Source: Promethearchaeota archaeon (GTDB lineage Archaea; Asgardarchaeota; Lokiarchaeia; Sigyniarchaeales; SOKP01). Taken from it: a stretch of DNA of 32,000 bases. The stretch covers positions 36,310-68,309 of the forward strand of contig JBHLOC010000018.1 of the NCBI GenBank assembly GCA_048940925.1. Reading direction: 5' to 3'. Below the pieces are notes generated by a model. The model searched no databases. It had not been told where the DNA came from and was given only the letters and a program-made list of their open reading frames with translations. The position numbers were made by a program, and so were the translations under genes. Position 1 is the first letter of the stretch. The number at the start of each line of letters is the position of its first letter. Below are positions 1,079 to 28,375 of the stretch, in pieces.

Positions 1079-2359
1079 TTAAGACGTACCCCATTTTTCA
1101 ATTGCTCTAGCTAATTCAATATTGTTTTTAGCATATTCTTTTAACTCATAACCTTCTAAAACAGCATTAATTGCTTGTCTAATTGCTTTTGCTCCAGCTT
1201 CAGTACCATCCGGATGTCCATGACACCCTCCTCCAAATTGAAATACCATATCCTTGCCTAAAATTTCGACTAATTCAGGAATATGCAATGGACTTAAACC
1301 TCCCGAAGCAACCGGTAGAGTGGGTTTGATTGTTCCCCACTCTTGATTAAGAACTGTTTGATTATTGTCTTCAATTTTGGATTTTGTAATTACTTGATTA
1401 ATTTCTAATACTTCTTTTTTAGCACCTTCCATTTTTCCTACTACCGTTCCTGTATGTAATTGATCCATACCAATTAATCTCATTAGTTTTGCTAAAGCTA
1501 GCATTGTCACTCCATGCTTTTTATTTCTAGTAAAAGCGGCATGCATTGCTCTGTGAGCATGAAGTACTAGGTCTTTATCATCGAGATATTCTCTAATTTC
1601 TTGTAGGGCTGAAAAACCTATGGTTACTATATCTACCATTACATATTCTCCCCCATTATCAAAAACATAATCTGCTCGTTTTTTCATAGTGCTAAGAGGA
1701 GATGTTATATTCGGCATATAGAATTTCCTTTCTCCTATTTCTGTTTCAATTCTATCACGGATTTTCAATGTTTCTGTAATTCTTGTCTCAAATTTATTAA
1801 AAACCATACTTGTTAAGTTTTCATCATCTTTAACAATGTCTAGTCCCCCTCTCCAAGCTTCTCCACACACTTTTGCATGCTCGATTTCATTCAATCCTAC
1901 CTTGGGCTTTACAATTGTTCCTACAAGTGGACGATCTCTAACTTTGGTCAATTTTCTAATACCTTGAATTCCGAATTTTGGTCCCTTATATGACTTTATA
2001 ATATTTTGAGGAAAACTTATATCTAATAATCTCAAATATTTTAGAGCTTTCATTCCAAAAATATTTCCTGCAACAGCACTTAATATTTGAGGTATATTTT
2101 CAATTTCGAAAAGTTCTTGAGTATAAGCAATTTTTACAATATTTTTTTCAGGATTAATATAAAAAACCGCTGGCTTGAGTCTTCTAGCAATATCTGCAGA
2201 TAAGGTAGCAATCTCTGTCCACGTTCCTATTGAGCTTTCTTTCGCAATTTCTTCACACGCTTGTTCAATATTTTTACAATCTGGTGCTTTTTCTACATAA
2301 TACATTGCAATGAGATCATTCTCATTTGGTTTATAGCTTAAATTTATATAGTCTACCAA
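1079..2359 (-). CDS. rbcL: ribulose-1,5-bisphosphate carboxylase/oxygenase large subunit, form III
   Basis: 426-aa ORF collinear with archaeal RbcL. Matching blocks: GNIFGMKALKYLRL, KPKVGL, GGLDIVKDDENLTS, HAHRAMHAAFTR, SGGL, GGGCHGHPDG, ELARAIEKWG. Apparent TTG start. Confidence 0.92.
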   Translation of the reverse strand: MVDYINLSYKPNENDLIAMYYVEKAPDCKNIEQACEEIAKESSIGTWTEIATLSADIARRLKPAVFYINPEKNIVKIAYTQELFEIENIPQILSAVAGNIFGMKALKYLRLLDISFPQNIIKSYKGPKFGIQGIRKLTKVRDRPLVGTIVKPKVGLNEIEHAKVCGEAWRGGLDIVKDDENLTSMVFNKFETRITETLKIRDRIETEIGERKFYMPNITSPLSTMKKRADYVFDNGGEYVMVDIVTIGFSALQEIREYLDDKDLVLHAHRAMHAAFTRNKKHGVTMLALAKLMRLIGMDQLHTGTVVGKMEGAKKEVLEINQVITKSKIEDNNQTVLNQEWGTIKPTLPVASGGLSPLHIPELVEILGKDMVFQFGGGCHGHPDGTEAGAKAIRQAINAVLEGYELKEYAKNNIELARAIEKWGTS

Positions 2360-2492: not shown

Positions 2493-2804
2493 ATGAGTGA
2501 AGAAAAAAGCAAGATTATGACTATAAACGTTAAAGATCTTAGTTTTAAAAGTGAACAGTATGTTCTTGATTTGATAAGATTCTTATCAGAGGCACTACCT
2601 CAAATAAATCTTGATCGTGAAGCGAATGATATTAGTGTTGAAATGCCAATTGAATTATCTAAGAGAGCTTTAAAATTAAGAATTAAGAAATTTTTGTATA
2701 AAAAAGGTTTAAACAAAGATTTTAGACCCATTTCACATAAATCAATAGATTCAGAAGGATATATTGTAAAAGAAAAGAAAATAGCAGAATTAAGTTATTA
2801 TTAA
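2493..2804 (+). CDS. small basic protein, possible eukaryote-type ribosomal protein eL22 homolog
   Basis: 103-aa ORF. The C-terminal half, ISVEMPIELSKRALKLRIKKFLYKKGLNKDFRPIS, resembles the remembered eL22 block [35 protein letters not shown]. The match is by eye only. Confidence 0.4.
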   Translation: MSEEKSKIMTINVKDLSFKSEQYVLDLIRFLSEALPQINLDREANDISVEMPIELSKRALKLRIKKFLYKKGLNKDFRPISHKSIDSEGYIVKEKKIAELSYY

Positions 2805-8349: not shown

Positions 8350-9939
8350 TTATTTATGGTTGATTTGTTCCCCATATCCTATTAGTCGATAACGCCTATT
8401 AATTATACGAGAAATAGCATATATGAAATCTTCAGGGGGACAAATAGGAGGTGTAAGTTTTATAATAACACTATTTTTTAAAATTTTCGTAACAGTCCCA
8501 CCTGTTTTTTCCGTTCCTACTACAAGTAATAATTTCTCTCCATGTTTGAGAGGTTGAACTTTCATTTGAACTTCAGATCCAATAACTCTATCTAAAAGAT
8601 TTACATTCAGCTCAACTTCGCTAAGAATTTTAGGTAATGTTCCTATTTTTCCAACTAAATGGCCAATTAGATGATCTCCTTTTGTTAACGCGGGATCTAA
8701 TTTTGTACCTAACCCTATGAGACCTCCAGGTTTAGCATTTTCCAAAGGATTATTTCCTTGGCTTATACTTACAACCGTAGATTTTAATGGTACATACTGA
8801 TCTTTAACTCGTATCCCCGGGCTAATTTCGATTTGGTCTCCAACTATTATTTTTCCTTTTAAAACAGAGCCCCCTATTACACCACCTTTTAAATCCTTAA
8901 TTTCTTTACCTGGACGATTGATATCAAAGGATCTCGCAATTAAAAATTGAAATGACTCCTCCTCTTTAAATTTTGGAGTAGGAATAACCTCTTCAAAAGC
9001 TCTTATTACAAGATTTATATTCGCCCCAAAAACTGCCGATAAGGGTATAATTGGAGCATTTTCAGCAACAGTTCCTTTTATAAATTCTTTTATTTGTTGA
9101 AAGTTCTCTAAGGCTTGTTCTCGAGAAACAGCATCAATTTTATTTTGTAATATAATAATATTTTTTATGCCCGCAATATTTAAAGCCGCTAAGTGTTCCC
9201 GTGTTTGAGGTTGAGGGCATTGCTCATCAGCTGCAATTAAAAGGCAAGCCCCATTCATTAATGATGCACCACTTAACATAGTTGCCATTAATATCTCATG
9301 ACCAGGCGCATCAACAAATGAGATATTTCTTCTAAATTCTAGATTTCCTTTACATTTTGGGCAAGAGAATCGAGCTTGTCCTTTTTCTCTATCTTTTTCT
9401 GCAAGATAAGCCGTTGTATATTCATTACATTCGGAACAATAAAGAATTGAGGCATTAGAATACCCTAACTTTATTGAAATTCCTCTTTCTTGCTCTTCTG
9501 AGTGGCGATCAGTCCAATCTCCAGTTAGGGCTTTTACTAGGGTTGTCTATATGTTTCATGAAGGATTCCTTCAAAAAATTCCATGATCAACATGCCCTAC
9601 AAGCCCTATATTACATTCTGCTTGTTGTTTGATTAATTCTTTTATCTTCTTAGCTTTCTCTTTCGAAACTGGCTTTGCTTTAGGTTTAGATATCGTTTCT
9701 TCTTTAATTATTTCTTTCACTTCATCAGATTGTTCTATTTTTTGACTTTTCTTTAGAATTTTTTTAGCATTTGTAATATACTTCTCTGCTGTTGCTTTTC
9801 CAACACCTTTTATTTTTAGCTTTAATAAATCCTTGGGTTCAGCATTTGCAAGTTTTTCAACAGAATCAATATTAGCAGCCTTTAATCTTTCTGCTGTTGC
9901 TTTTCCAATTCCACTTACATCTTCCAATTTATATGACAT
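8350..9939 (-). CDS. eif2g: translation initiation factor aIF2 gamma with N-terminal (HhH)2 extension, interrupted in the P-loop by a 30-nt intervening sequence (exons 9939..9579 and 9548..8350)
   Basis: ORFs 9571..9939 and 8350..9288 are in the same frame, and 9289-9548 is open in that frame. Concatenated sequence: ...NIGLVGHVDHG[K]TTLVKALTGDWTDRHSEEQERGISIKLGY...CSEC...CPKC...FVDAPGHEILMATMLSGA...QNKID...RSFDINRPG. This is collinear with aIF2-gamma, including the zinc knuckle. Exon lengths of 361 + 1199 nt give 1560 nt, which is 520 codons including the stop. Confidence 0.85.
9549..9578 (-). other. candidate bulge-helix-bulge (BHB) intron in the aIF2-gamma mRNA
   Basis: Minus-strand sequence is GGAA|UUUUUUGAAGGAAUCCUUCAUGAAACAUAU|AGACA. 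It contains in-frame TGA, TGA and TAG. Removing it restores GGA AAG ACA (G-K-T). The structure has 3-nt bulges AAU/AUA, a central helix AUGG/ACAU and an internal hairpin UUUUUGAAGG-AAU-CCUUCAUGAA. Confidence 0.6.
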
Positions 9940-10385: not shown

Positions 10386-12512
10386 ATGGCTAAAGTATTA
10401 TTAAAAATAATTATTTGTTCATTTCTTATACTTCTGATTTCCTTTCCATTTTTAAACTTATTATTAGTTTATTATGTGGATAATTCAAATAATTTAGAGT
10501 TTCCAGGAACAGATATTGATCTTAGTAATAACTCTAAAGTCGATTTATCCTTATTACCAAAAATTGATTATGAAGTATTAAATAACCTTTGGTATAATCC
10601 AAAGATCGAAATGTTGATTATAACACCCAATAGATCCGATTTCATAAATACTATTAAACCATTGGCAGATTGGAAAAATGAAAAAGGTGTAAAGACGATT
10701 ATCTTAAGTAATTATTCATTATATAATGGTGTGGATGATGCTAATTCTATTAGAAATATGATAAAAACTTACTATGAAAAAGAAAATATTAAATGGGTTC
10801 TTTTAGCTGGTGATGCCCAAGATGATTTGATCCCTATTAGAAAGGTTTATAATCCCGATGTATTAAGATGGGGTGAGGGAGCTAAAGAATCGATTCCAGG
10901 TGATTATTATAAACCAACTGATTTTTATTATGCGGATCTCACAGGCAGTTGGGATAGTGATGGTGATGGAAACTGGGGAGAGGCTCCTCAAGATAATACT
11001 TATGGTTTAGATGAGATCTCATGGATTCCTGAAGTCTATGTTGGTCGCTTTCCAGCTGATACAGCTAATGAACTTGAAATTTTGGTAAACAAAACATTAA
11101 ATTATGAAGTGGATCCTAATATTGGTAATTGGATGAATAGAATGCTTTTAGCGGGCGGGATATCTAGTTATGTTCCCCAAGAATATGAAAGCCGCTTAAC
11201 AGATTACATTATCCAAAATTATGCTAAATCTGAAATGAATTATACTCATTTAGTAGAAGAAGATGGTAACCTTACACAATCAAGTCTCAAAAATTATTTT
11301 AATCAGGGATACTCAACAGTAATAATGGCAGGTCATGGAAGCCCTACAGCTTTCTATCGAAATCCTAGTCGAGTAGGTTATTCATCTTCAGATGCAAACT
11401 CAAGCTTGAATGCCTATATGCCGTCTTTAGTGTATCTCGATGCCTGTTCCACCTCTAGCTATGATTATAATGATAATAATTTAGGAGAAGTTTTAATAAA
11501 TAGATTAAATGGTGGTGCTATTGGTACAATTGGAGCCCTAAGATTTAGTTATTATTTCGAAAATGATGATAATCTTGAAAAATTAAATCGTGGGAATGCG
11601 AAATTATTTTGGGAAGAATTTTTTCTTAATAAAAAATTTCAACAAGGTAAAGCATTGTATGATTCTAAGGTTTCTTACATAAATAGTGATTATTATAAGA
11701 GAGGGGACGGATCTACTGATTATGATTTTGAACGTAAAAATATCTTAACTTATTGTCTTTTAGGTGATCCTGAAGTTGATATCTTTACTGATCAACCAAG
11801 AAAAGCATTAGATCCATTTAGTGAAGATATTTATGCAGGTCAATTAGTTAGTCTTGTTATTAAAGATAAATATAATCAGATAGTTCCAAATGCAAGAGTT
11901 CACTTTAAAACTGTAGATAACATATATTATACTGTATATGCGGATGCTAATGGAGTAGTAGAGTTTAGAGTTCCCGCACAAACCACTCAAATATATAATG
12001 TGACAATTACGGGACATAATTTGATACCTTCCAATTTTAGTTTTTTAACATTAAGAGATAATACAATGCCAGAATTAAGCAGTGTAGATATTGTTCCTCA
12101 AAACCCAAATACAGCAGATACTCTTTATTTCAATATCACAGCTTTTGATAATCTTTCGGGGTTAGAAAGTGTCTATCTATTCATTTCTAAAGATAATTTC
12201 AAACATTATTCCAATTATAGCGGGTCAAATGGAATCTTAGATAATGAACGCAGGTTTATGCTCGATATTGGTAAATTAAAACCTGGAAAATATTCGTACC
12301 TTATCACTTTAAGAGATTATGCTAATAATACAAAAATTTTTTATGATAACAGTTTTAAATTTACAATACCTAGACCTTTGATGGATTATATACTTCCTAT
12401 TTCTTTAATGATAATAATAGGAGCTGCAGGAATTTCAATTTTTATCTTTTATGAGGGATTCCTAACCTATTTCAAAAAAATAAGAAATTTTGAAAAAAAT
12501 TTATCATCATAG
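10386..12512 (+). CDS. peptidase C25 (gingipain-like, caspase-fold) family surface protein
   Basis: 708 aa with an N-terminal signal/anchor segment. C25-like layout: MLIITP..., WVLLAGDAQDDLIP, VYVGRFP. Candidate catalytic His is in MAGHGSP and Cys is in YLDACSTS. C-terminal Ig/CarboxypepD_reg-like repeats and a C-terminal TM (ILPISLMIIIGAAGISIFIF). Confidence 0.65.
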   Translation: MAKVLLKIIICSFLILLISFPFLNLLLVYYVDNSNNLEFPGTDIDLSNNSKVDLSLLPKIDYEVLNNLWYNPKIEMLIITPNRSDFINTIKPLADWKNEKGVKTIILSNYSLYNGVDDANSIRNMIKTYYEKENIKWVLLAGDAQDDLIPIRKVYNPDVLRWGEGAKESIPGDYYKPTDFYYADLTGSWDSDGDGNWGEAPQDNTYGLDEISWIPEVYVGRFPADTANELEILVNKTLNYEVDPNIGNWMNRMLLAGGISSYVPQEYESRLTDYIIQNYAKSEMNYTHLVEEDGNLTQSSLKNYFNQGYSTVIMAGHGSPTAFYRNPSRVGYSSSDANSSLNAYMPSLVYLDACSTSSYDYNDNNLGEVLINRLNGGAIGTIGALRFSYYFENDDNLEKLNRGNAKLFWEEFFLNKKFQQGKALYDSKVSYINSDYYKRGDGSTDYDFERKNILTYCLLGDPEVDIFTDQPRKALDPFSEDIYAGQLVSLVIKDKYNQIVPNARVHFKTVDNIYYTVYADANGVVEFRVPAQTTQIYNVTITGHNLIPSNFSFLTLRDNTMPELSSVDIVPQNPNTADTLYFNITAFDNLSGLESVYLFISKDNFKHYSNYSGSNGILDNERRFMLDIGKLKPGKYSYLITLRDYANNTKIFYDNSFKFTIPRPLMDYILPISLMIIIGAAGISIFIFYEGFLTYFKKIRNFEKNLSS

Positions 12513-14738: not shown

Positions 14739-15260
14739 ATGCCTAAGAAATTTATACTCAAGATCCTTACAGCGGGAGAAGGGGGTGTTGGCAAAACTAC
14801 GCTCTTACATAGATACGTAGAAGGTAAATTCTCATCAGAAACGAAAATGACTATTGGAGTAGAGTTTTTTCTGAAAGAAGTCGAAATTGATCAAAAACAA
14901 TGCACCCTCCAACTCTGGGATTTTGGAGGACAAGAGAGATTTCGTTTTTTACTTGAAAGTTATGTATTAGGAGCGAAAGGTGCATTACTAATGTTCGATT
15001 TGACTAGGATCTCAAGCCTTGAAAATCTAAATCAATGGATAAGGATCGTTCGAAAGGGAGATCCAAACCTCCCAGTCCTCTTTCTTGGTACTAAATTGGA
15101 TTTGGAAAATGAGATTCAGGTTGATGATGATTATGCAAAATCTTTTTTAAATGAATTTAATTTAATGGGCTTTTTAAAAATCTCTTCAAAAACTGGTGAA
15201 AATGTTAGTGAGGCTTTTAGTATATTAACAAAAAAAATATTAGAGCGACAGACTTATTGA
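14739..15260 (+). CDS. Ras-superfamily small GTPase (Rab-like)
   Basis: 173 aa. G1 GEGGVGKT, G2 region MTIGVEF, G3 WDFGGQERF, G4 GTKLD, G5 SSKTGENV. Confidence 0.85.
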   Translation: MPKKFILKILTAGEGGVGKTTLLHRYVEGKFSSETKMTIGVEFFLKEVEIDQKQCTLQLWDFGGQERFRFLLESYVLGAKGALLMFDLTRISSLENLNQWIRIVRKGDPNLPVLFLGTKLDLENEIQVDDDYAKSFLNEFNLMGFLKISSKTGENVSEAFSILTKKILERQTY

Positions 15261-15263
15261 AAA

Positions 15264-15701
15264 TTGAGCCTCAATTTAATCATTATTGATTCTAATTTTA
15301 TTCTTCTTCCTTTTCAATTTAAAGTGGATTATTTACATGAAATAAGGCACATTATAGAGGGTAAACTTAAGTTCATTATATACCAACAAGTTTTGAATGA
15401 ACTTGAATCAAAGAAAAAAAGAGAATCTCGTGCTACTAAATTTATCAGGCTTCTTGAGTCAGGTTTATCATATTTAGACAAGCATAAAAGTGATTATGAT
15501 TTTAATTTTTTGGATGATGTTAAAAACTCTGATGAGACCACAGATGATTTTCTATTGAGAAAACTAACAGGCTTAAAAAAGGAAGGTAATATCCTTTATC
15601 TTGCTTCAAATGATTCAGAATTACGTAAAAAAGCAAGAGAACGAGAAATAAATACAATTTTCCTTAGGAAAAAAAAATATTTGTTTATAGAGAGAGTTTA
15701 A
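15264..15701 (+). CDS. PIN-domain nuclease, Fcf1/Utp24-like (COG1412-type)
   Basis: 145 aa. N-terminal IIIDSNFILLP, then VLNELE, DDFLL and the C-terminal LASNDSELRKKARE..INTIFLR, fitting the Fcf1-type PIN pattern. TTG start lies 3 nt after the stop of the upstream GTPase gene. Confidence 0.6.
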   Translation: MSLNLIIIDSNFILLPFQFKVDYLHEIRHIIEGKLKFIIYQQVLNELESKKKRESRATKFIRLLESGLSYLDKHKSDYDFNFLDDVKNSDETTDDFLLRKLTGLKKEGNILYLASNDSELRKKAREREINTIFLRKKKYLFIERV

Positions 15702-15857: not shown

Positions 15858-16373
15858 TTGTCCAAACCAATGATTATAAAGTGTATTACAGCAGGAGATG
15901 GTGGTGTGGGTAAAACAACACTCCTTTATCGATATGTGGAGGGAAGATTTTTAGCAGACACACGTATGACCTTAGGTGTAGAGTTTTTCATAAAAGAAGT
16001 AGATGTTGGAAGGAAAAAGATAAATTTACAGGTGTGGGATTTTGGAGGTCAGGAGCATTTTCGACCATTATTAAAAAATTATGCATTGGGGGCAAGGGGA
16101 GCATTATTACTTTTTGATCTTACTAGACCATCAAGCTTAGACAAAATTGACCAATGGGTTAATATCTGTAGAGAAGATAACCCCAATATACCTATTATTT
16201 TTTTGGGTACAAAACTAGATTTAACTGATTTAATATCTGTTGATGACAGTTATGCATTGAGATTTAAAACTAAGTATAATTTTCTTGATTATTTAAAAAT
16301 CTCCTCGAAAACTGGTGAAAATGTGAATTTAGCATTTAAGATGTTAGCAAAAGAAATCATAAGGAATTTATAA
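15858..16373 (+). CDS. Ras-superfamily small GTPase (Rab-like), paralog of 14739..15260
   Basis: 171 aa. GDGGVGKT, MTLGVEF, WDFGGQEHF, GTKLD, SSKTGENV. GGAGG lies upstream. Start is TTG 15858 or ATG 15870. Confidence 0.85.
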   Translation: MSKPMIIKCITAGDGGVGKTTLLYRYVEGRFLADTRMTLGVEFFIKEVDVGRKKINLQVWDFGGQEHFRPLLKNYALGARGALLLFDLTRPSSLDKIDQWVNICREDNPNIPIIFLGTKLDLTDLISVDDSYALRFKTKYNFLDYLKISSKTGENVNLAFKMLAKEIIRNL

Positions 16374-20183: not shown

Positions 20184-20933
20184 ATGATTAAAAATATCTT
20201 CATCATGAAATCCACAGGGGAGTTAATTTTTTATAAAACCTATGAAGATATTTTTAATGTAAAACTTACAAGTAGTTTTTTAAGTGCGATCTTCTCATTT
20301 GTAAAACAAACATTAAAAACTGAAGAATTATCTGAAATTGAAGTAGGGCTCTTTAGGTTTATATTTGAAATTGAGAAAATGGGGAATGATGAATTACTAT
20401 TTGCATTATTTAGTGATCGAACTGAAAATTTAATCGAGTTAAGAAAACAATTACGAGAAGTAAAAAATCAATTTTTAAATAGATTTGATGTTAACTTATT
20501 AACTGATCATTATGATGGCGAGATTTCAAAATTTCTCGATTTTGAAAATAATATTAATGACATCATGGAAAGTAGTAAGCCATTGATCTCAAAAGAAATC
20601 CATGGAGATTTAATAAATATTTTTAATGAGCTGCATACATTCTCTTCTTTCGTCGTATCTTCAGCATTATTAACTCAGACAGGAAGAGTAATAGTTTCCT
20701 ATTTAGAACATAATGTTCTTACAGAAATCATACGACTTCTAGAGGGTAGATTTCTGGCAGGAAATTATAAAGTTAATGAGCTAATATCATTAGAAAAATT
20801 TGGCGTGCTTTCATTGGTAGGAATCAATGATAGTTATATATCAGTAATTCAATTTAAAAAAAATTGCCCTTTTGAGACAGGGTTAGTCATTTCAAAAAGA
20901 TTCTCAAATAGACTGCAAAAACTTATTTGTTAA
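20184..20933 (+). CDS. hypothetical protein, possible longin-like N-domain plus Roadblock/LC7-like C-domain
   Basis: 249 aa. The N-terminus IFIMKSTGELIFYKTY....LTSSFLSAIFSFVKQ resembles longin/SNARE-like folds. The C-terminus VVSSALLTQTGRVIVSYLE...VLSLVGINDSYISVIQF resembles Roadblock. Pattern level only. Confidence 0.35.
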   Translation: MIKNIFIMKSTGELIFYKTYEDIFNVKLTSSFLSAIFSFVKQTLKTEELSEIEVGLFRFIFEIEKMGNDELLFALFSDRTENLIELRKQLREVKNQFLNRFDVNLLTDHYDGEISKFLDFENNINDIMESSKPLISKEIHGDLINIFNELHTFSSFVVSSALLTQTGRVIVSYLEHNVLTEIIRLLEGRFLAGNYKVNELISLEKFGVLSLVGINDSYISVIQFKKNCPFETGLVISKRFSNRLQKLIC

Positions 20934-24080: not shown

Positions 24081-24290
24081 TTATTCCTCTTCTTCTTCTT
24101 CCAATAGTTCTTCTATTTTATCTTCTAATTCTTCAATTTTATCGTCGATTTCAGCGATTTTATTATATGTTTCACATGTCTCGCACGCATCGGGTTCCTC
24201 GCATTTTGGGAGAGTATCACAAATTTCCTCTAATTTATCTCTCTCATCTAATAGTTTTTCAATTTCCTCTTCTAGTTTTTCAATACTCAT
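24081..24290 (-). CDS. small highly acidic coiled-coil protein with central 4-Cys cluster
   Basis: 69 aa. MSIEKLEEEIEKLLDERDKLEEICDTLPKCEEPDACETCETY...EEEEEE. Lies directly downstream of the permuted GTPase on the same strand. Confidence 0.4.
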   Translation of the reverse strand: MSIEKLEEEIEKLLDERDKLEEICDTLPKCEEPDACETCETYNKIAEIDDKIEELEDKIEELLEEEEEE

Positions 24291-24359: not shown

Positions 24360-25190
24360 TTATCTAAAAAAAGTCAAATACACATATGTAACTATCAATA
24401 TCGCTATGATGATCAAGAAAAGAATAATAAAACATTTCCTTGATTTCTTACTTTTTATAAATTCTTTCCCTTCTAAGATAAGAGTTTCTTGATCACCATT
24501 ATCCAGTGTTGTATCTTTAATTAAAAACTGCCCAGTATCAGTTTGAATTATCTCTAATTCTTCCCTTTTTTGCAATTTTTTAGTTAATTTTCTGAATTCC
24601 TTTACTGATTTCTTAATTAAATCTTGAGTTTCTTTGGGTAAATCATCATCCCGAATTTCAAGATCTTGTGTCATAAAATCTAAACCAACAGTTAACTTGT
24701 AATCTGCTTCAAACTCTTTATTAACAAAAGATTTGATTAATGAAGACTTCCCTACAGCAGCTTCCCCAACAAGCAATATTTTAAACCTAAAATGATCAGA
24801 ATTGATAATTTCACCTAACCTTGCTTTAAAATCTAGCAATGAGATTAATGCTAACCTATAAAATAACTTATCTACGTTATTTTTTTCTAAGGCTGATGTT
24901 TCTATAAACTCAAATAGATTGTATTGATTTAATTTTTGAAGTATTTTATCTTTTGGAACTGCTTCTCCGATATCTTTCTTTAAATCATTTTTATTTCCAA
25001 CTAAGATAATTGGGATGTTTCCTGAATGTTCACGTAAATCTTTAAAATATTCGTCAATATTTTCGAGGGTATCAGGTCTAGAAAGATCAAATACTAATGC
25101 AACTGTAGCAACTCCGTTAAAAAAATCAGTTTTAAAGAAGCTAAACCGCTCTTGACCTGCGATATCCCAAAGACTTAGAGTTACTCTCAT
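24360..25190 (-). CDS. circularly permuted Rab-like small GTPase with C-terminal transmembrane anchor
   Basis: 276 aa. G3 WDIAGQERF (aa 8-16), G4 GNKND (65-69), G5 ETSA (97-100), then G1 GEAAVGKS (142-149) and G2 YKLTVGLDF (164-172). TM CFIILFLIIIAILIVTYVYLTFF (253-275). An in-frame TAG lies 5 codons upstream of the ATG, and the upstream region is AT-rich non-coding. Confidence 0.75.
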   Translation of the reverse strand: MRVTLSLWDIAGQERFSFFKTDFFNGVATVALVFDLSRPDTLENIDEYFKDLREHSGNIPIILVGNKNDLKKDIGEAVPKDKILQKLNQYNLFEFIETSALEKNNVDKLFYRLALISLLDFKARLGEIINSDHFRFKILLVGEAAVGKSSLIKSFVNKEFEADYKLTVGLDFMTQDLEIRDDDLPKETQDLIKKSVKEFRKLTKKLQKREELEIIQTDTGQFLIKDTTLDNGDQETLILEGKEFIKSKKSRKCFIILFLIIIAILIVTYVYLTFFR

Positions 25191-25327
25191 TAAAGGTTCA
25201 GACCTCTACTTTTGGTTCAATAAGATAATTTTAATTGTCATTATTATAAAATATTAAAAATTGATATAATTTAAAATTAAAAAAGCGATTTCAATTTATT
25301 GAATAAATAATTAGAATTCTATATTTA

Positions 25328-25840
25328 CTATAATTTTTTCTCTAAAATTTCTAGCATGTCTTCTTCGAGAGTAGGATGCCATTTTGGATTTTCAACTATA
25401 GTGCCTATAAGATCACCAGTTTTGTTAAAGAAATAGAATGTTGGGATTGCTTTTAAGTCAAATTTTGGATCAACAGCTTCAGGTGGAGAACGTTTTTTAT
25501 GCCATCTAGGCTCTCCGGGTTTATCTATAGCGTTTACCATAATGCCATACAAAATTTGTAATGTTACATCATCTGAACTTATGGTTTTCATTATTTTTAT
25601 CATATAAGGCACATTCTTAGTGCAATCAGGGCACCAATCTGCACCCAATACAACTATTTTTAACTTTTGATTTTTTTCTTTCAATATATTTTGGATTTTT
25701 TCAATAATTTCTGACTTTGGTGTATAATTTTCAAGATTGCTGTTGATTATTGGCTTATCTTTATTGAGATTTATATACTCATCAGGAGTTAAAGTTGGAG
25801 ATATTAGATCGTAATATTTTAATTCACTCATATTTAACAT
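25328..25840 (-). CDS. thioredoxin-fold protein (WCPDC active site)
   Basis: 170 aa. VVLGADWCPDCTKNVP is a CxxC redox motif in thioredoxin-like context, and IPTFYFF is a cis-Pro loop-like segment. Confidence 0.65.
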   Translation of the reverse strand: MLNMSELKYYDLISPTLTPDEYINLNKDKPIINSNLENYTPKSEIIEKIQNILKEKNQKLKIVVLGADWCPDCTKNVPYMIKIMKTISSDDVTLQILYGIMVNAIDKPGEPRWHKKRSPPEAVDPKFDLKAIPTFYFFNKTGDLIGTIVENPKWHPTLEEDMLEILEKKL

Positions 25841-27844: not shown

Positions 27845-28375
27845 TTATTCTCTTTTTTTACTTTTTAAGATTAATTTTGTTAATAAATTGAATATTTTGT
27901 GGACATTTTCTCCAGTTTTAGAGCTACATTCTATAAAACCATCAGCATCTTTGAGGTTTGCTATCTCCATTGCCTTTCTAGTTGAGATCTCTTTAAGATG
28001 CATTAAATCAGTTTTTCCACCAACAAAGATGATAGGTATATCATATTCAATTTCTTTTTTAACAATCTCAAACCAATCATCTACATGAGCTAATGATCCA
28101 TAATTAGTAATATCATACATAAAAATAGCTCCACTTGCGCCTCGGATGTAAGAAGGAAAAAGAAATCTGAATCTTTCCTCTCCAGCAAAATCCCAAATTT
28201 GAAGTTTTACCATTTCATCATCTACTTCAATTGCTTTCAATAAAAAGTCTACACCTAATGTCATTTGAATGTTTTCCTTAAATAGATTCGTTAAGAATCT
28301 GTGAGCTAAAGTAGTCTTTCCGGTTTTACTATCTCCAAATAGTACTATTTTGAAAGTTGAAGTATAAGATGCCAA
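27845..28375 (-). CDS. Ras-superfamily small GTPase (Rab-like) with Glu in place of the catalytic Gln
   Basis: 176 aa. G1 GDSKTGKT, MTLGVDF, G3 WDFAGEERF, G4 GGKTD, G5 CSSKTGENV. TTG start. Confidence 0.8.
   Translation of the reverse strand: MASYTSTFKIVLFGDSKTGKTTLAHRFLTNLFKENIQMTLGVDFLLKAIEVDDEMVKLQIWDFAGEERFRFLFPSYIRGASGAIFMYDITNYGSLAHVDDWFEIVKKEIEYDIPIIFVGGKTDLMHLKEISTRKAMEIANLKDADGFIECSSKTGENVHKIFNLLTKLILKSKKRE

What the first reader, a model, noticed from the sequence alone, without database searches (positions are those of the whole stretch)
24360..25190. Circularly permuted Rab-like GTPase (G3-G4-G5-G1-G2) with a C-terminal membrane anchor
Seen directly: the protein begins with beta3/G3 (RVTLSLWDIAGQERF) and continues through G4 (GNKND), G5 (ETSA) and a helix-5-like segment. 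Only then, after a roughly 15-aa linker, come beta1/G1 (FKILLVGEAAVGKSS) and G2 (YKLTVGLDFMTQDLEI). Every element of one Ras-like domain is present exactly once, so this is a true permutation with the new termini in the beta2-beta3 interswitch hairpin. It is not a truncated tandem. An in-frame TAG lies 5 codons upstream of the ATG, and the upstream 137 nt are AT-rich non-coding, so no missing N-terminal exon is evident. Established: the known cpGTPases (RsgA/YjeQ, YlqF, YqeH) have the order G4-G5-G1-G2-G3 and belong to the TRAFAC ribosome-assembly group. A Rab/Ras-like domain opened in the interswitch is a different topology. After the domain come a charged coiled-coil-like region and a TM helix (aa 253-275), giving a tail-anchored membrane GTPase reminiscent of prenyl-anchored eukaryotic Rabs.
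Basis: partly seen in the sequence, partly recalled or inferred. Interest (0 to 1): 0.8.

Follow-up and report, generated by a model that had tools for sequence, protein, structure and literature searches.

The report
Circularly permuted membrane-anchored Asgard Rab-like GTPase
This Asgard archaeal gene encodes a Rab-like GTP switch whose sequence halves are swapped (G3-G4-G5-G1-G2) and which carries its own membrane anchor; the same swap is known in eukaryotic cpRAS, but here it arose separately and is conserved in dozens of Asgard genomes.

Summary
Window 24360-25190 (-) encodes a 276-aa protein. Residues 5-113 match Rab11 residues 57-163, and residues 133-180 match Rab11 residues 4-51. Each G motif occurs once, in the order G3-G4-G5-G1-G2. 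A basic amphipathic helix, a variable linker and a C-terminal transmembrane helix follow.

It is not a pseudogene or a fusion artefact. The same permuted gene sits in the same neighbourhood in 62 species-level Asgard genomes. All catalytic residues are invariant, dN/dS of the G domain is about 0.1, and AlphaFold gives one compact domain (pTM 0.83).

Eukaryotic cpRAS (Elias & Novotny 2008) has exactly this topology. Phylogeny shows an independent origin: the Asgard family forms its own clade (95% bootstrap) among canonical Asgard Rab-like GTPases, whereas cpRAS groups with HRAS/RAP1A (100%).

About a third of members carry a membrane anchor, and anchoring looks ancestral. A 69-aa very acidic four-Cys protein is encoded downstream in 52 of 62 loci.

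I found no description of this family in the searchable literature. Verdict: a new variant of a known kind, and moderately to highly interesting, because published analyses found no membrane-association signal in archaeal Rab-like GTPases.

The parts
24360..25190 (-). Whole gene: 276-aa circularly permuted Rab-like small GTPase with a C-terminal anchor
   Evidence: ORF. Pfam Ras E=1.4e-37 in two stretches. 100% identical to an NCBI 'MAG: GTP-binding protein [Promethearchaeota archaeon]'.
25202..25206 (-). Shine-Dalgarno-like GAGGT, 12-16 nt upstream of the ATG
   Evidence: Read directly. Its function is inferred.
24834..25187 (-). N-terminal segment, aa 2-119: beta3, switch II/alpha2, beta4, alpha3, beta5, alpha4, beta6, alpha5 of the Ras fold
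   Evidence: Aligns to Rab11B 57-163. DSSP elements of the AF2 models. Foldseek superposes it on Rab11/Rab10/Sec4/RhoA at rmsd 1.2-2.2 A over 101-122 columns.
25152..25166 (-). G3 motif D9-I-A-G-Q13 (Walker B Asp, switch II Gly, catalytic Gln)
   Evidence: D9, G12 and Q13 are invariant in 62 aligned family members.
24984..24995 (-). G4 motif N66-K-N-D69 (guanine specificity)
   Evidence: K67 and D69 are invariant; N66 is conserved in at least 90%.
24891..24902 (-). G5 motif E97-T-S-A100
   Evidence: S99 is invariant; T98 and A100 are conserved in at least 90%.
24789..24833 (-). New connector, aa 120-134 (D-F-K-A-R-L-G-E-I-I-N-S-D-H-F), joining alpha5 to beta1. It replaces the free termini of a canonical GTPase.
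   Evidence: It lies between the two Rab11 alignment blocks. G126 is invariant across the 62-row alignment A3; D120, R124, E127 and R135 are conserved in at least 90% of A3 rows, and D120, R124 and R135 are invariant within the small subclade (A1). pLDDT 86-94, with a short strand at 128-130.
24651..24794 (-). C-terminal segment of the G domain, aa 133-180: beta1, P-loop, alpha1, switch I, beta2
   Evidence: Aligns to Rab11B 4-51. pLDDT about 90 for beta1, the P-loop and alpha1, and 88 for beta2.
24744..24767 (-). G1/P-loop G142-E-A-A-V-G-K-S149
   Evidence: G142, V146, G147 and K148 are invariant.
24675..24701 (-). G2/switch I and the start of beta2: Y164-K-L-T167-V-G-L-D-F172 (Rab-type T-[IV]-G-x-D-F)
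   Evidence: Y164 and T167 are invariant. Aligns to Rab11 STIGVEF.
24558..24644 (-). Post-beta2 segment, aa 183-211: conserved D-L-P-x-E cap plus a basic amphipathic helix (net charge +7 over 186-209, hydrophobic moment up to 0.72)
   Evidence: AF2 predicts a helix at 186-211 with pLDDT about 90. P185 and E187 are conserved in at least 90% across both subclades. dN/dS is 0.09-0.11, as constrained as the G domain.
24441..24557 (-). Variable acidic linker, aa 212-250 (predicted disordered)
   Evidence: pLDDT below 50. dN/dS about 0.8-2.7. Not alignable between homologues.
24366..24434 (-). C-terminal transmembrane tail anchor, aa 253-275, preceded by KSKKSRK. Only one residue (R276) follows it.
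   Evidence: Hydropathy 3.12. AF2 helix 251-275 with pLDDT 86-97. An equivalent helix is present in 22 of 61 complete orthologues/paralogues. dN/dS 0.18-0.5.
24081..24290 (-). Conserved downstream neighbour: a 69-aa very acidic (net charge -23) helical protein with a C-x5-C-x5-C-x2-C motif. Candidate partner (inferred).
   Evidence: Same strand, 69 nt downstream. A homologue lies downstream on the same strand in 52 of 62 cp loci. The family is Asgard-only and unannotated.
25328..25840 (-). Conserved upstream neighbour: 170-aa Thioredoxin_9 protein
   Evidence: Pfam PF14595, E=1e-13. Present upstream of the cp gene in most loci.

Best explanation
The gene encodes a functional small GTPase of the Asgard Rab-like group whose G domain is circularly permuted. 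The chain starts at beta3/G3 and runs through G4, G5 and alpha5. A conserved connector of about 14 residues then leads into beta1/G1, alpha1, switch I/G2 and beta2, where the domain ends. The pieces fold back into one ordinary Ras-like domain that binds and hydrolyses GTP. This last step is inferred from intact, invariant catalytic residues and from the predicted fold; it was not assayed. Because the chain leaves the domain from the end of beta2, everything downstream hangs from the interswitch edge: a strongly conserved basic amphipathic helix, a disordered acidic spacer of about 40 residues, and a tail-anchor transmembrane helix. The protein is therefore a GTP/GDP switch tethered permanently to the cytoplasmic face of the cell membrane, without lipidation (predicted). 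Its most likely job is to recruit or release partner proteins at the membrane according to nucleotide state. The acidic 69-aa four-Cys protein encoded next to it in most genomes is the best candidate partner (inferred from synteny and charge complementarity only). In evolutionary terms, the permutation happened once, early in Asgard archaea. It arose from a canonical Asgard Rab-like gene, plausibly through fusion of tandemly arrayed same-frame GTPase genes followed by trimming. It is independent of the eukaryotic cpRAS permutation.
For: Permutation: there are two complementary alignments to Rab11, and Pfam Ras matches in two stretches.
A real, constrained gene: all 120 closest database clusters have the same motif order at the same positions. 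There are 62 loci in species-representative Asgard genomes. The residues contacting nucleotide and Mg (D9, G12, Q13, K67, D69, S99, G142, G147, K148, T167) are invariant. dN/dS is 0.07-0.12 for the G domain and 0.09-0.11 for the post-beta2 helix.
Single fold: the AF2 model of aa 1-212 has pLDDT 85.2 and pTM 0.83, with all Ras-fold elements in rotated order and low confidence only at the two switch regions. The beta3-to-alpha5 part superposes on Rab11, Rab10 and Sec4 at 1.2-2 A.
Membrane anchor: hydropathy is 3.12, the helix sits at the extreme C-terminus and a basic cluster lies on its N-terminal side. The anchor recurs in 22 of 61 complete ORFs, including the most divergent branches and the second subclade.
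Single, independent origin: the Asgard cp clade has 95.5% bootstrap support and sits among canonical Asgard GTPases (about 44% identity to P0154 and P0161). cpRAS groups with HRAS and RAP1A at 100%, and shares only 23-28% identity with the window protein.
Raw material: arrays of adjacent same-frame canonical GTPase genes exist in the same genomes.
Partner and neighbourhood: the acidic 69-aa gene lies downstream on the same strand in 52 of 62 loci.
Against: Nothing here is biochemical; GTP binding, hydrolysis and membrane insertion are all inferred. Closure of beta1-alpha1-beta2 onto the rest of the domain rests on AF2 confidence only. About two thirds of family members lack the TM helix, so membrane anchoring is not obligatory for the family's function. 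The partner hypothesis rests on gene order in a lineage where the whole neighbourhood is syntenic, so adjacency could be inherited rather than functional.
Confidence: 0.8

Rival explanations
1. It is a recent fusion/deletion pseudogene or an assembly artefact. In this view it was made from two adjacent normal GTPase genes: the 3' part of one joined to the 5' part of the next.
For: Asgard genomes do carry arrays of adjacent canonical GTPase genes in the same frame, and these give pseudo-'permuted' tblastn alignments (L067-L074). The window itself has three canonical small GTPase genes.
Against: The same permuted ORF, with the same start and the same connector, occurs in 62 species-level genomes of several Asgard lineages and in a conserved neighbourhood. 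Catalytic residues are invariant. dN/dS is about 0.1. The connector itself is conserved (G126 invariant; D120, R124 and R135 in at least 90% of rows).
Confidence: 0.01
2. It is a member of the eukaryotic cpRAS family, either by common descent (an Asgard ancestor of cpRAS) or by horizontal transfer.
For: The motif order G3-G4-G5-G1-G2 and the break point in the beta2-beta3 turn are identical.
Against: Identity to five cpRAS domains is 23-28%, against about 44% to canonical Asgard GTPases. cpRAS is 54% identical to HRAS and clusters with HRAS/RAP1A at 100% bootstrap. cpRAS has the RAS-type G2 motif YDPTIEDSY, whereas this protein has the Rab-type YKLTVGLDF. cpRAS sits inside 840-3900-aa VWA or macroglobulin proteins, whereas this protein stands alone.
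Confidence: 0.03
3. The chain does not close on itself. Two molecules would complement each other instead, with beta1-alpha1-beta2 of one packing onto beta3-to-alpha5 of the other, giving an obligate domain-swapped dimer at the membrane.
For: Permuted and split proteins often swap domains. The connector is short (about 14 residues). Nothing here measures oligomeric state. The sequential structure search cannot verify intramolecular packing.
Against: The AF2 monomer model is confident (pTM 0.83), with pLDDT about 90 for beta1 and the P-loop and 86-94 for the connector. In Ras-like folds the N-terminus of beta1 and the C-terminus of alpha5 lie close together (established knowledge), so 14 residues is ample. 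cpRAS has an even shorter connector.
Confidence: 0.1
4. It is a pseudo-GTPase: it keeps the fold as a membrane-bound scaffold but no longer cycles nucleotide.
For: Breaking the interswitch hairpin was once argued to be incompatible with proper folding (Anand et al., as quoted). One divergent long-form relative (L076) has a degenerate G3, WDPPGD.
Against: In this protein and its close relatives every nucleotide-contacting residue, including the catalytic Gln13 and switch I Thr167, is invariant. A dead scaffold would not be expected to keep them.
Confidence: 0.06

Closest known systems
cpRAS domain of eukaryotic CPRas proteins (Elias & Novotny 2008, Biol Direct 3:21; PMC2430557)
   Same: Both have the same circular permutation, G3-G4-G5-G1-G2, with termini in the beta2-beta3 turn and alpha5 joined directly to beta1. 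Both keep all G motifs.
   Different: cpRAS is RAS-family (54% identity to HRAS, TIE-type G2). It is eukaryote-only and embedded in large VWA or macroglobulin-like proteins with no TM anchor. The window protein is Rab-like, archaeal, stand-alone and tail-anchored. It shares only 23-28% identity with cpRAS and falls in a separate clade, so the topology is convergent.
Canonical Asgard Rab-like small GTPases (for example Thorarchaeota Rab, PDB 7EZB; relatives P0154 and P0161 found here)
   Same: These are the closest sequence relatives (about 44% identity after rotation). They share signatures such as GxAAVGK[ST]S, WDIAGQERF and VFDL[ST]R, and they come from the same organisms.
   Different: They have the normal order G1 to G5 and are 170-185 aa long. 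Published analyses report no membrane-association signal in them (PMC4915359). The window protein is permuted and adds a basic amphipathic helix and a TM anchor.
YRG / cpGTPases (RsgA/YjeQ, YlqF/RbgA, YqeH, YawG/Lsg1)
   Same: They are circularly permuted P-loop GTPases that still fold and hydrolyse GTP.
   Different: They use a different break point (order G4-G5-G1-G2-G3, opened between beta3 and alpha2). They belong to the TRAFAC ribosome-assembly group and are universal and ancient. NCBIfam scores here are far below their cut-offs: YqeH 21 vs 297, YlqF 15 vs 208, RsgA 13.5 vs 483.
Eukaryotic small GTPases anchored by a protein transmembrane helix (Miro with a C-terminal tail anchor; SR-beta with an N-terminal TM). 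Comparison from general knowledge.
   Same: In all of them a Ras-superfamily G domain is held at a membrane by its own TM helix rather than by a lipid.
   Different: Those G domains are not permuted and belong to other subfamilies (Miro/Rho-like, Arf-like). No homology of the anchors is implied. This comparison was not tested here.

Membership tests
Ras superfamily small GTPase (P-loop, TRAFAC class) | G1 GxxxxGK[ST], G2 Thr, G3 DxxG, G4 [NT]KxD and G5 [ES]xSA all present | tested here: met
   GEAAVGKS (142-149), T167, DIAGQ (9-13), NKND (66-69), ETSA (97-100). These residues are invariant across the family. Pfam Ras scores 129 bits against a cut-off of 21.6.
Ras superfamily small GTPase (P-loop, TRAFAC class) | Motifs in the canonical order G1-G2-G3-G4-G5 | tested here: not met
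   The order is G3-G4-G5-G1-G2.
Ras superfamily small GTPase (P-loop, TRAFAC class) | A single alpha/beta Ras-like fold | tested here: inconclusive
   The AF2 model has pTM 0.83 and pLDDT 85, with all elements present. Two thirds of the fold superposes on Rab11 at under 2 A. A permutation-aware superposition of the remaining third could not be run.
Ras superfamily small GTPase (P-loop, TRAFAC class) | Binds and hydrolyses GTP | not testable with these tools
   This needs biochemistry.
Eukaryotic Rab family | Rab-specific RabF motifs (IGVDF, KLQIWDTAGQE, RFRSIT, YYRGA, LVYDIT) | tested here: inconclusive
   There are partial matches only: VGLDF, LSLWDIAGQE, RFSFFK, FFNGV, LVFDLS (read from the sequence; RabF consensus from general knowledge). 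The best PDB matches are Rab11, Ypt31/32 and Sec4, but the NJ tree places the protein with Asgard-specific GTPases rather than inside eukaryotic Rabs.
Eukaryotic Rab family | C-terminal Cys prenylation motif | tested here: not met
   The C-terminus is ...YLTFFR. The only nearby Cys (C253) is at the start of the TM helix.
cpRAS (Elias & Novotny 2008) | Motif order G3-G4-G5-G1-G2 | tested here: met
cpRAS (Elias & Novotny 2008) | RAS-family affinity (TIE-type G2) and monophyly with the cpRAS domains | tested here: not met
   G2 is YKLTVGLDF. Identity to cpRAS is 23-28%. cpRAS, HRAS and RAP1A form a clade at 100% bootstrap that excludes the window protein.
cpRAS (Elias & Novotny 2008) | Embedded in a large protein with a VWA (Sec23/24 trunk) or macroglobulin-like region | tested here: not met
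   The protein is 276 aa with no other Pfam domain. The long-form relatives have a different C-terminal region with no Pfam match.
YRG circularly permuted GTPases (RsgA, YlqF, YqeH) | Order G4-G5-G1-G2-G3 and family-level HMM match | tested here: not met
   The order differs. NCBIfam equivalog scores are 13-21 bits against cut-offs of 100-483.
Tail-anchored membrane protein | A single hydrophobic helix within about 30 residues of the C-terminus, no N-terminal signal sequence, and the bulk of the protein cytosolic | tested here: met
   The TM helix spans 253-275 of 276 with hydropathy 3.12. KSKKSRK lies on its N-terminal side. The N-terminus is beta3 of the G domain. Actual insertion was not tested.

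The most novel reading that the evidence does not exclude
The permutation is adaptive and builds an Arf-like output into a Rab-like scaffold. Cutting the beta2-beta3 turn frees beta2 to shift with switch I when GTP binds. The only thing attached to the freed end of beta2 is the conserved basic amphipathic helix, which is as constrained as the G domain. Nucleotide state would then directly control whether that helix lies on the membrane or binds the very acidic 69-aa neighbour protein. On this reading the family is an ancient, Asgard-wide, intrinsically membrane-coupled GTPase switch that predates eukaryotic lipid-anchored Rabs and Arfs and was not inherited by eukaryotes.
Probability: 0.15. 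Interest if true: 0.85.

Novelty: new variant of a known kind. Interest (0 to 1): 0.62.

Why it matters
There are three reasons.

1. This is a second, independent occurrence of a permutation that a systematic survey (Anand and colleagues, as quoted by Elias & Novotny) considered structurally unlikely, because it breaks the beta2-beta3 turn. Here it is kept under strong purifying selection across a whole archaeal lineage, so the Ras fold tolerates opening the interswitch, and may even exploit it.

2. A standing question in eukaryogenesis is whether the many Asgard small GTPases act on membranes. Published analyses found no prenylation site, polybasic region or other membrane signal in archaeal Rab-like proteins (PMC4915359; PMC4917890). 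This family has both a polybasic amphipathic helix and, in about a third of members, a transmembrane anchor. That gives a concrete protein to localise and to use as bait.

3. Surveys that discard 'incomplete' or 'divergent' GTPase sequences may have dropped this family, because each half looks like a fragment.

Tried and rejected
- **Rotated-sequence AlphaFold prediction.** I tried this in order to superpose the whole domain on Rab.
- **Foldseek on both native models.** It aligns only the sequential beta3-to-alpha5 block, so it cannot by itself prove closure. I relied on pTM and pLDDT instead.
- **Biopython bootstrap.** It timed out and I replaced it with a numpy/NJ implementation.
- **Tandem two-domain Asgard protein P0141 as a duplication intermediate.** Its domains group with other canonical Asgard GTPases, not with the cp clade. 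It is not a specific ancestor.
- **Apparent 'permuted' hits L067-L074 in the genome scan.** These turned out to be separate adjacent canonical genes in the same frame. L075, L077-L084 are canonical genes matched by two HSPs.
- **P0261, a permuted-order Rab7-like sequence.** It comes from a foraminiferan transcriptome (Bolivina). It may be a partial tandem transcript and I left it unresolved.
- **Weak Pfam hits to SNARE (E=0.011) and COG2_N in the tail.** I rejected these as low-complexity or TM matches below the cut-offs.
- **Literature searches.** I searched for Asgard plus permutation, transmembrane or small GTPase and found no description of this family. Absence from the held library does not prove the family is undescribed.
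Full report

Yes. The ORF listing finds a 276-aa ORF at 24360..25190 on the minus strand with an ATG start. Read on the minus strand, an in-frame TAG lies six codons before the ATG. The 137-nt spacer up to the preceding gene (25191-25327) is AT-rich and carries a GAGGT 12-16 nt before the start.

Pfam Ras matches at E=1.4e-37 in two stretches. Residues 2-114 align to profile positions 47-157, and the P-loop region (about 137-182) matches the start of P-loop GTPase profiles. phmmer against all PDB chains shows the permutation explicitly. For Rab11B, query 133-180 aligns to residues 4-51 and query 5-113 aligns to residues 57-163. The two blocks are complementary and do not overlap, and the break falls in the beta2-beta3 turn.

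The motifs are G3 DIAGQ (9-13), G4 NKND (66-69), G5 ETSA (97-100), G1 GEAAVGKS (142-149) and G2 T167 in YKLTVGLDF. The last 23 residues before the terminal Arg form a strongly hydrophobic segment (mean hydropathy 3.12) preceded by KSKKSRK.

**2. Is it a real gene or an accident?**

A search of 5.8 billion protein clusters returned an identical NCBI entry, 'MAG: GTP-binding protein [Promethearchaeota archaeon]'. It also returned more than 100 close relatives (E below 1e-90) labelled Promethearchaeota, Loki-, Thor-, Hermod-, Hod- and Odinarchaeota. NCBI places Promethearchaeota in the kingdom Promethearchaeati. All 120 listed hits have the five motifs in the same permuted order at the same positions.

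A scan of one genome per GTDB species found 62 loci encoding the permuted protein, all in Asgard MAGs. Sixty-one of the ORFs are complete.

In a 62-sequence alignment the residues that contact nucleotide and Mg are invariant: D9, G12, Q13, K67, D69, S99, G142, G147, K148 and T167. Parts of the new alpha5-to-beta1 connector are also invariant or nearly so (G126, D120, R124, R135).

Nei-Gojobori dN/dS against the three closest orthologues gives:
- G domain: 0.07-0.12
- helix after beta2: 0.09-0.11
- acidic linker: about 0.8-2.7
- TM helix: 0.18-0.5

This is a gene under purifying selection, not a recent fusion or deletion product. The orthologous loci carry the same permuted gene, not two adjacent normal GTPase genes.

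**3. Does it fold as one domain?**

AlphaFold2 on the full protein with 50 homologues gave pLDDT 68 and pTM 0.60. The low regions were the linker and the two switch regions.

A second model of aa 1-212 with 62 homologues gave pLDDT 85.2 and pTM 0.83. Its elements run in the order beta3, alpha2, beta4, alpha3, beta5, alpha4, beta6, alpha5, a short strand, beta1, alpha1, beta2, and then a long C-terminal helix. Only switch II (block 11-20, pLDDT 56) and switch I (block 161-170, pLDDT 47) are uncertain, as is usual for nucleotide-free predictions.

Foldseek against PDB superposes the beta3-to-alpha5 block on Rab11, Rab10, Sec4 and RhoA at 1.2-2.2 A over 101-122 columns. Foldseek aligns sequentially, so it cannot score the rotated third. 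Closure is therefore strongly suggested (pTM 0.83; pLDDT about 90 for beta1 and the P-loop) but not shown by a permutation-aware superposition.

**4.

Elias and Novotny (2008, PMC2430557) described cpRAS, a RAS-family domain with exactly the order G3-G4-G5-G1-G2. They found it in large VWA- or macroglobulin-type proteins of Dictyostelium, Naegleria, Acanthamoeba, Capsaspora, Monosiga and a few animals, and regarded it as eukaryote-specific. The topology is therefore known.

**5. Is the window protein a cpRAS?**

No. I took five cpRAS sequences from that paper's supplement and rotated them, and the Asgard sequences, to canonical order.

Identities of the window domain:
- about 44% to canonical Asgard proteins P0161 and P0154
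- 34-36% to Rab11, Rab7 and Rab5
- 27% to HRAS
- 23-28% to cpRAS

By contrast, cpRAS is 54% identical to HRAS.

In a bootstrapped NJ tree the 14 Asgard permuted sequences form one clade (95.5%). That clade has two subclades (99.5% and 95%) and lies among canonical Asgard GTPases. cpRAS, HRAS and RAP1A form a separate clade at 100%. The G2 motif is Rab-type (T-V-G-L-D-F), not RAS-type (T-I-E-D-S-Y). The two permutations are therefore convergent.

The same genomes carry arrays of adjacent canonical GTPase genes in the same reading frame (L067 and L071). That is the kind of substrate from which fusion followed by trimming could generate a permutant. This origin is an inference. A fused tandem protein (P0141) shows no special affinity to the cp clade.

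**6. Family anatomy beyond the window**

The search of 50%-identity representatives shows a second subclade. It includes long forms of 428-755 aa (P0128, P0131, P0132, P0145, P0148; also L076). In these, the permuted G domain is N-terminal and is followed by a low-complexity linker, a conserved region with no Pfam match, and C-terminal hydrophobic helices. It also includes 284-316-aa forms with a single C-terminal TM helix (P0134, P0138).

Among the 61 complete ORFs in species representatives, 22 have a C-terminal TM helix. The helix occurs in the window's own group, in the most divergent members of the small subclade, and throughout the second subclade. The TM-less 206-226-aa proteins form a tight 66-73%-identity cluster. 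This pattern suggests, as an inference, that the anchor is ancestral and was lost in that cluster.

All members keep a D/E-x-L-P-x-E cap and a basic amphipathic helix directly after beta2. In the window protein this helix has net charge +7 over residues 186-209 and a hydrophobic moment up to 0.72.

**7. Neighbourhood**

The cp gene lies in a conserved block. The usual order is: AFOR, Thioredoxin_9, a ~680-aa protein with no Pfam match, a methyltransferase, the cp GTPase, an HD-domain gene on the opposite strand, a 68-72-aa acidic protein, and then acyl-CoA dehydrogenases.

The acidic small gene is downstream on the same strand in 52 of 62 loci and directly adjacent in 21. The window, like L005-L007, has the compact form: Trx_9, then the cp GTPase, then the 69-aa gene after a 69-nt gap. 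It lacks the 680-aa, methyltransferase and HD genes anywhere in its 32 kb.

The small protein has net charge -23, two predicted helical halves and a C-x5-C-x5-C-x2-C motif. Its family is Asgard-only and unannotated. Charge complementarity with the +7 helix makes it a candidate partner, but the whole region is syntenic, so this remains a hypothesis.

**8. How it most likely works**

- **Shown:** a permuted but complete and constrained G domain, a predicted single fold, and a predicted tail anchor.
- **Inferred:** the protein binds and hydrolyses GTP like its canonical relatives. It sits on the cytoplasmic face of the membrane, held by the C-terminal helix through a flexible spacer of about 40 residues. 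It recruits partners according to nucleotide state.

Because the chain exits from beta2, the conserved basic helix is attached directly to the switch I/interswitch element. A more speculative reading follows from this. Nucleotide-driven movement of switch I and beta2 might reposition that helix on the membrane or on the acidic partner, by analogy with the Arf interswitch toggle. I give this 0.15.

**9. Novelty and interest**

Full-text searches found no description of a permuted or TM-anchored Asgard small GTPase. The searches combined Asgard with permutation, transmembrane, Rab-like and small-GTPase terms, and I checked the main Asgard GTPase papers individually. One survey explicitly set aside 'incomplete' and 'divergent' sequences.

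Earlier analyses concluded that archaeal Rab-like proteins lack any membrane-association signal. I therefore rate this a new variant of a known kind: a known topology, arising independently, in a new lineage, with a new architecture. Interest is about 0.6.

Noticed in passing
window ~8350-9939 (-), insertion at about 9549-9578: The aIF2-gamma gene is interrupted inside its P-loop. The frame reads GHVDHG-IF*RNPS*NI*-TTLVKALTG. Removing 30 nt (UUUUUUGAAGGAAUCCUUCAUGAAACAUAU) restores GHVDHG-K-TTLV, and the Lys codon is split A|AG. The RNA folds (dG -16.2, z -1.97) into a hairpin flanked by an exon-pairing helix, and it can be drawn as a relaxed bulge-helix-bulge with both junctions after the second base of a 3-nt bulge. 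This is a candidate archaeal mRNA mini-intron. The gene also has an N-terminal extension with two HhH-like repeats (GIGKATAERL, GVGKATAEKY).
   Followed up: partly
window 24081-24290 (-): A 69-aa protein with net charge -23 and a C-x5-C-x5-C-x2-C motif between two helical halves. It has an SD-like GGTG before its ATG. Its family (48 clusters, 68-83 aa) is found only in Asgard MAGs, and every member is annotated hypothetical or carries an unrelated automatic label (prefoldin subunit 5, FtsB, PspA). It travels with the cp GTPase gene in 52 of 62 genomes.
   Followed up: partly
window 20184-20933 (+): A 249-aa ORF with a sub-threshold match to the first longin domain of FUZ/MON1/HPS1 (PF19036, E=8e-5, 23 bits against a cut-off of 26). 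This could be a longin-type GTPase regulator, encoded 3.4 kb from the cp GTPase.
   Followed up: no
window 14739-15260 (+), 15858-16373 (+), 27845-28375 (-): Three canonical-order small GTPase genes (Pfam Ras E=4e-44, 6e-40 and 2e-45) lie in the same 32 kb. The first two flank a PIN-domain gene (15264-15701). The third (176 aa) is a conserved member of the cp GTPase neighbourhood; its homologue sits next to the DEAD/MZB helicase and Trx_9 genes in other genomes.
   Followed up: partly
L001 3154-5205; L003 2175-4217; most of L008-L059: A ~680-aa protein with no Pfam match, plus a class I methyltransferase, sit immediately upstream of the cp GTPase gene in most Asgard genomes. Both are absent from this window. 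They may belong to the same functional module.
   Followed up: no
P0128, P0131, P0132, P0145, P0148; L076 3956-5548: These are long-form paralogues (428-755 aa). Each has an N-terminal permuted G domain, a Pro/Lys/Glu-rich linker, a conserved C-terminal region (KxTVFYxxQMNP...FPGC...PLDARKD...TPTKVVKQT) with no Pfam match, and terminal hydrophobic helices. L076 has a degenerate G3 (WDPPGD).
   Followed up: partly
P0261 (EukProt, Bolivina argentea): A 243-aa foraminiferan sequence has a Rab7-like domain in the same permuted order (G3..G5 followed by G1-G2). It could be a third independent permutation, or a partial transcript of a tandem multi-Rab gene such as P0122, P0126 or P0130.
   Followed up: no
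window 2493-2804 (+), 1079-2359 (-), 10386-12512 (+): The context genes fit an Asgard genome. There is a weak ribosomal L22e match (E=7e-5, 23.5 bits against a cut-off of 23.6). There is a RuBisCO large-subunit homologue next to an eIF-2B-family (PF01008) protein gene (127-1068, +). There is also a 708-aa Peptidase_C25 (gingipain-type) protein.
   Followed up: no
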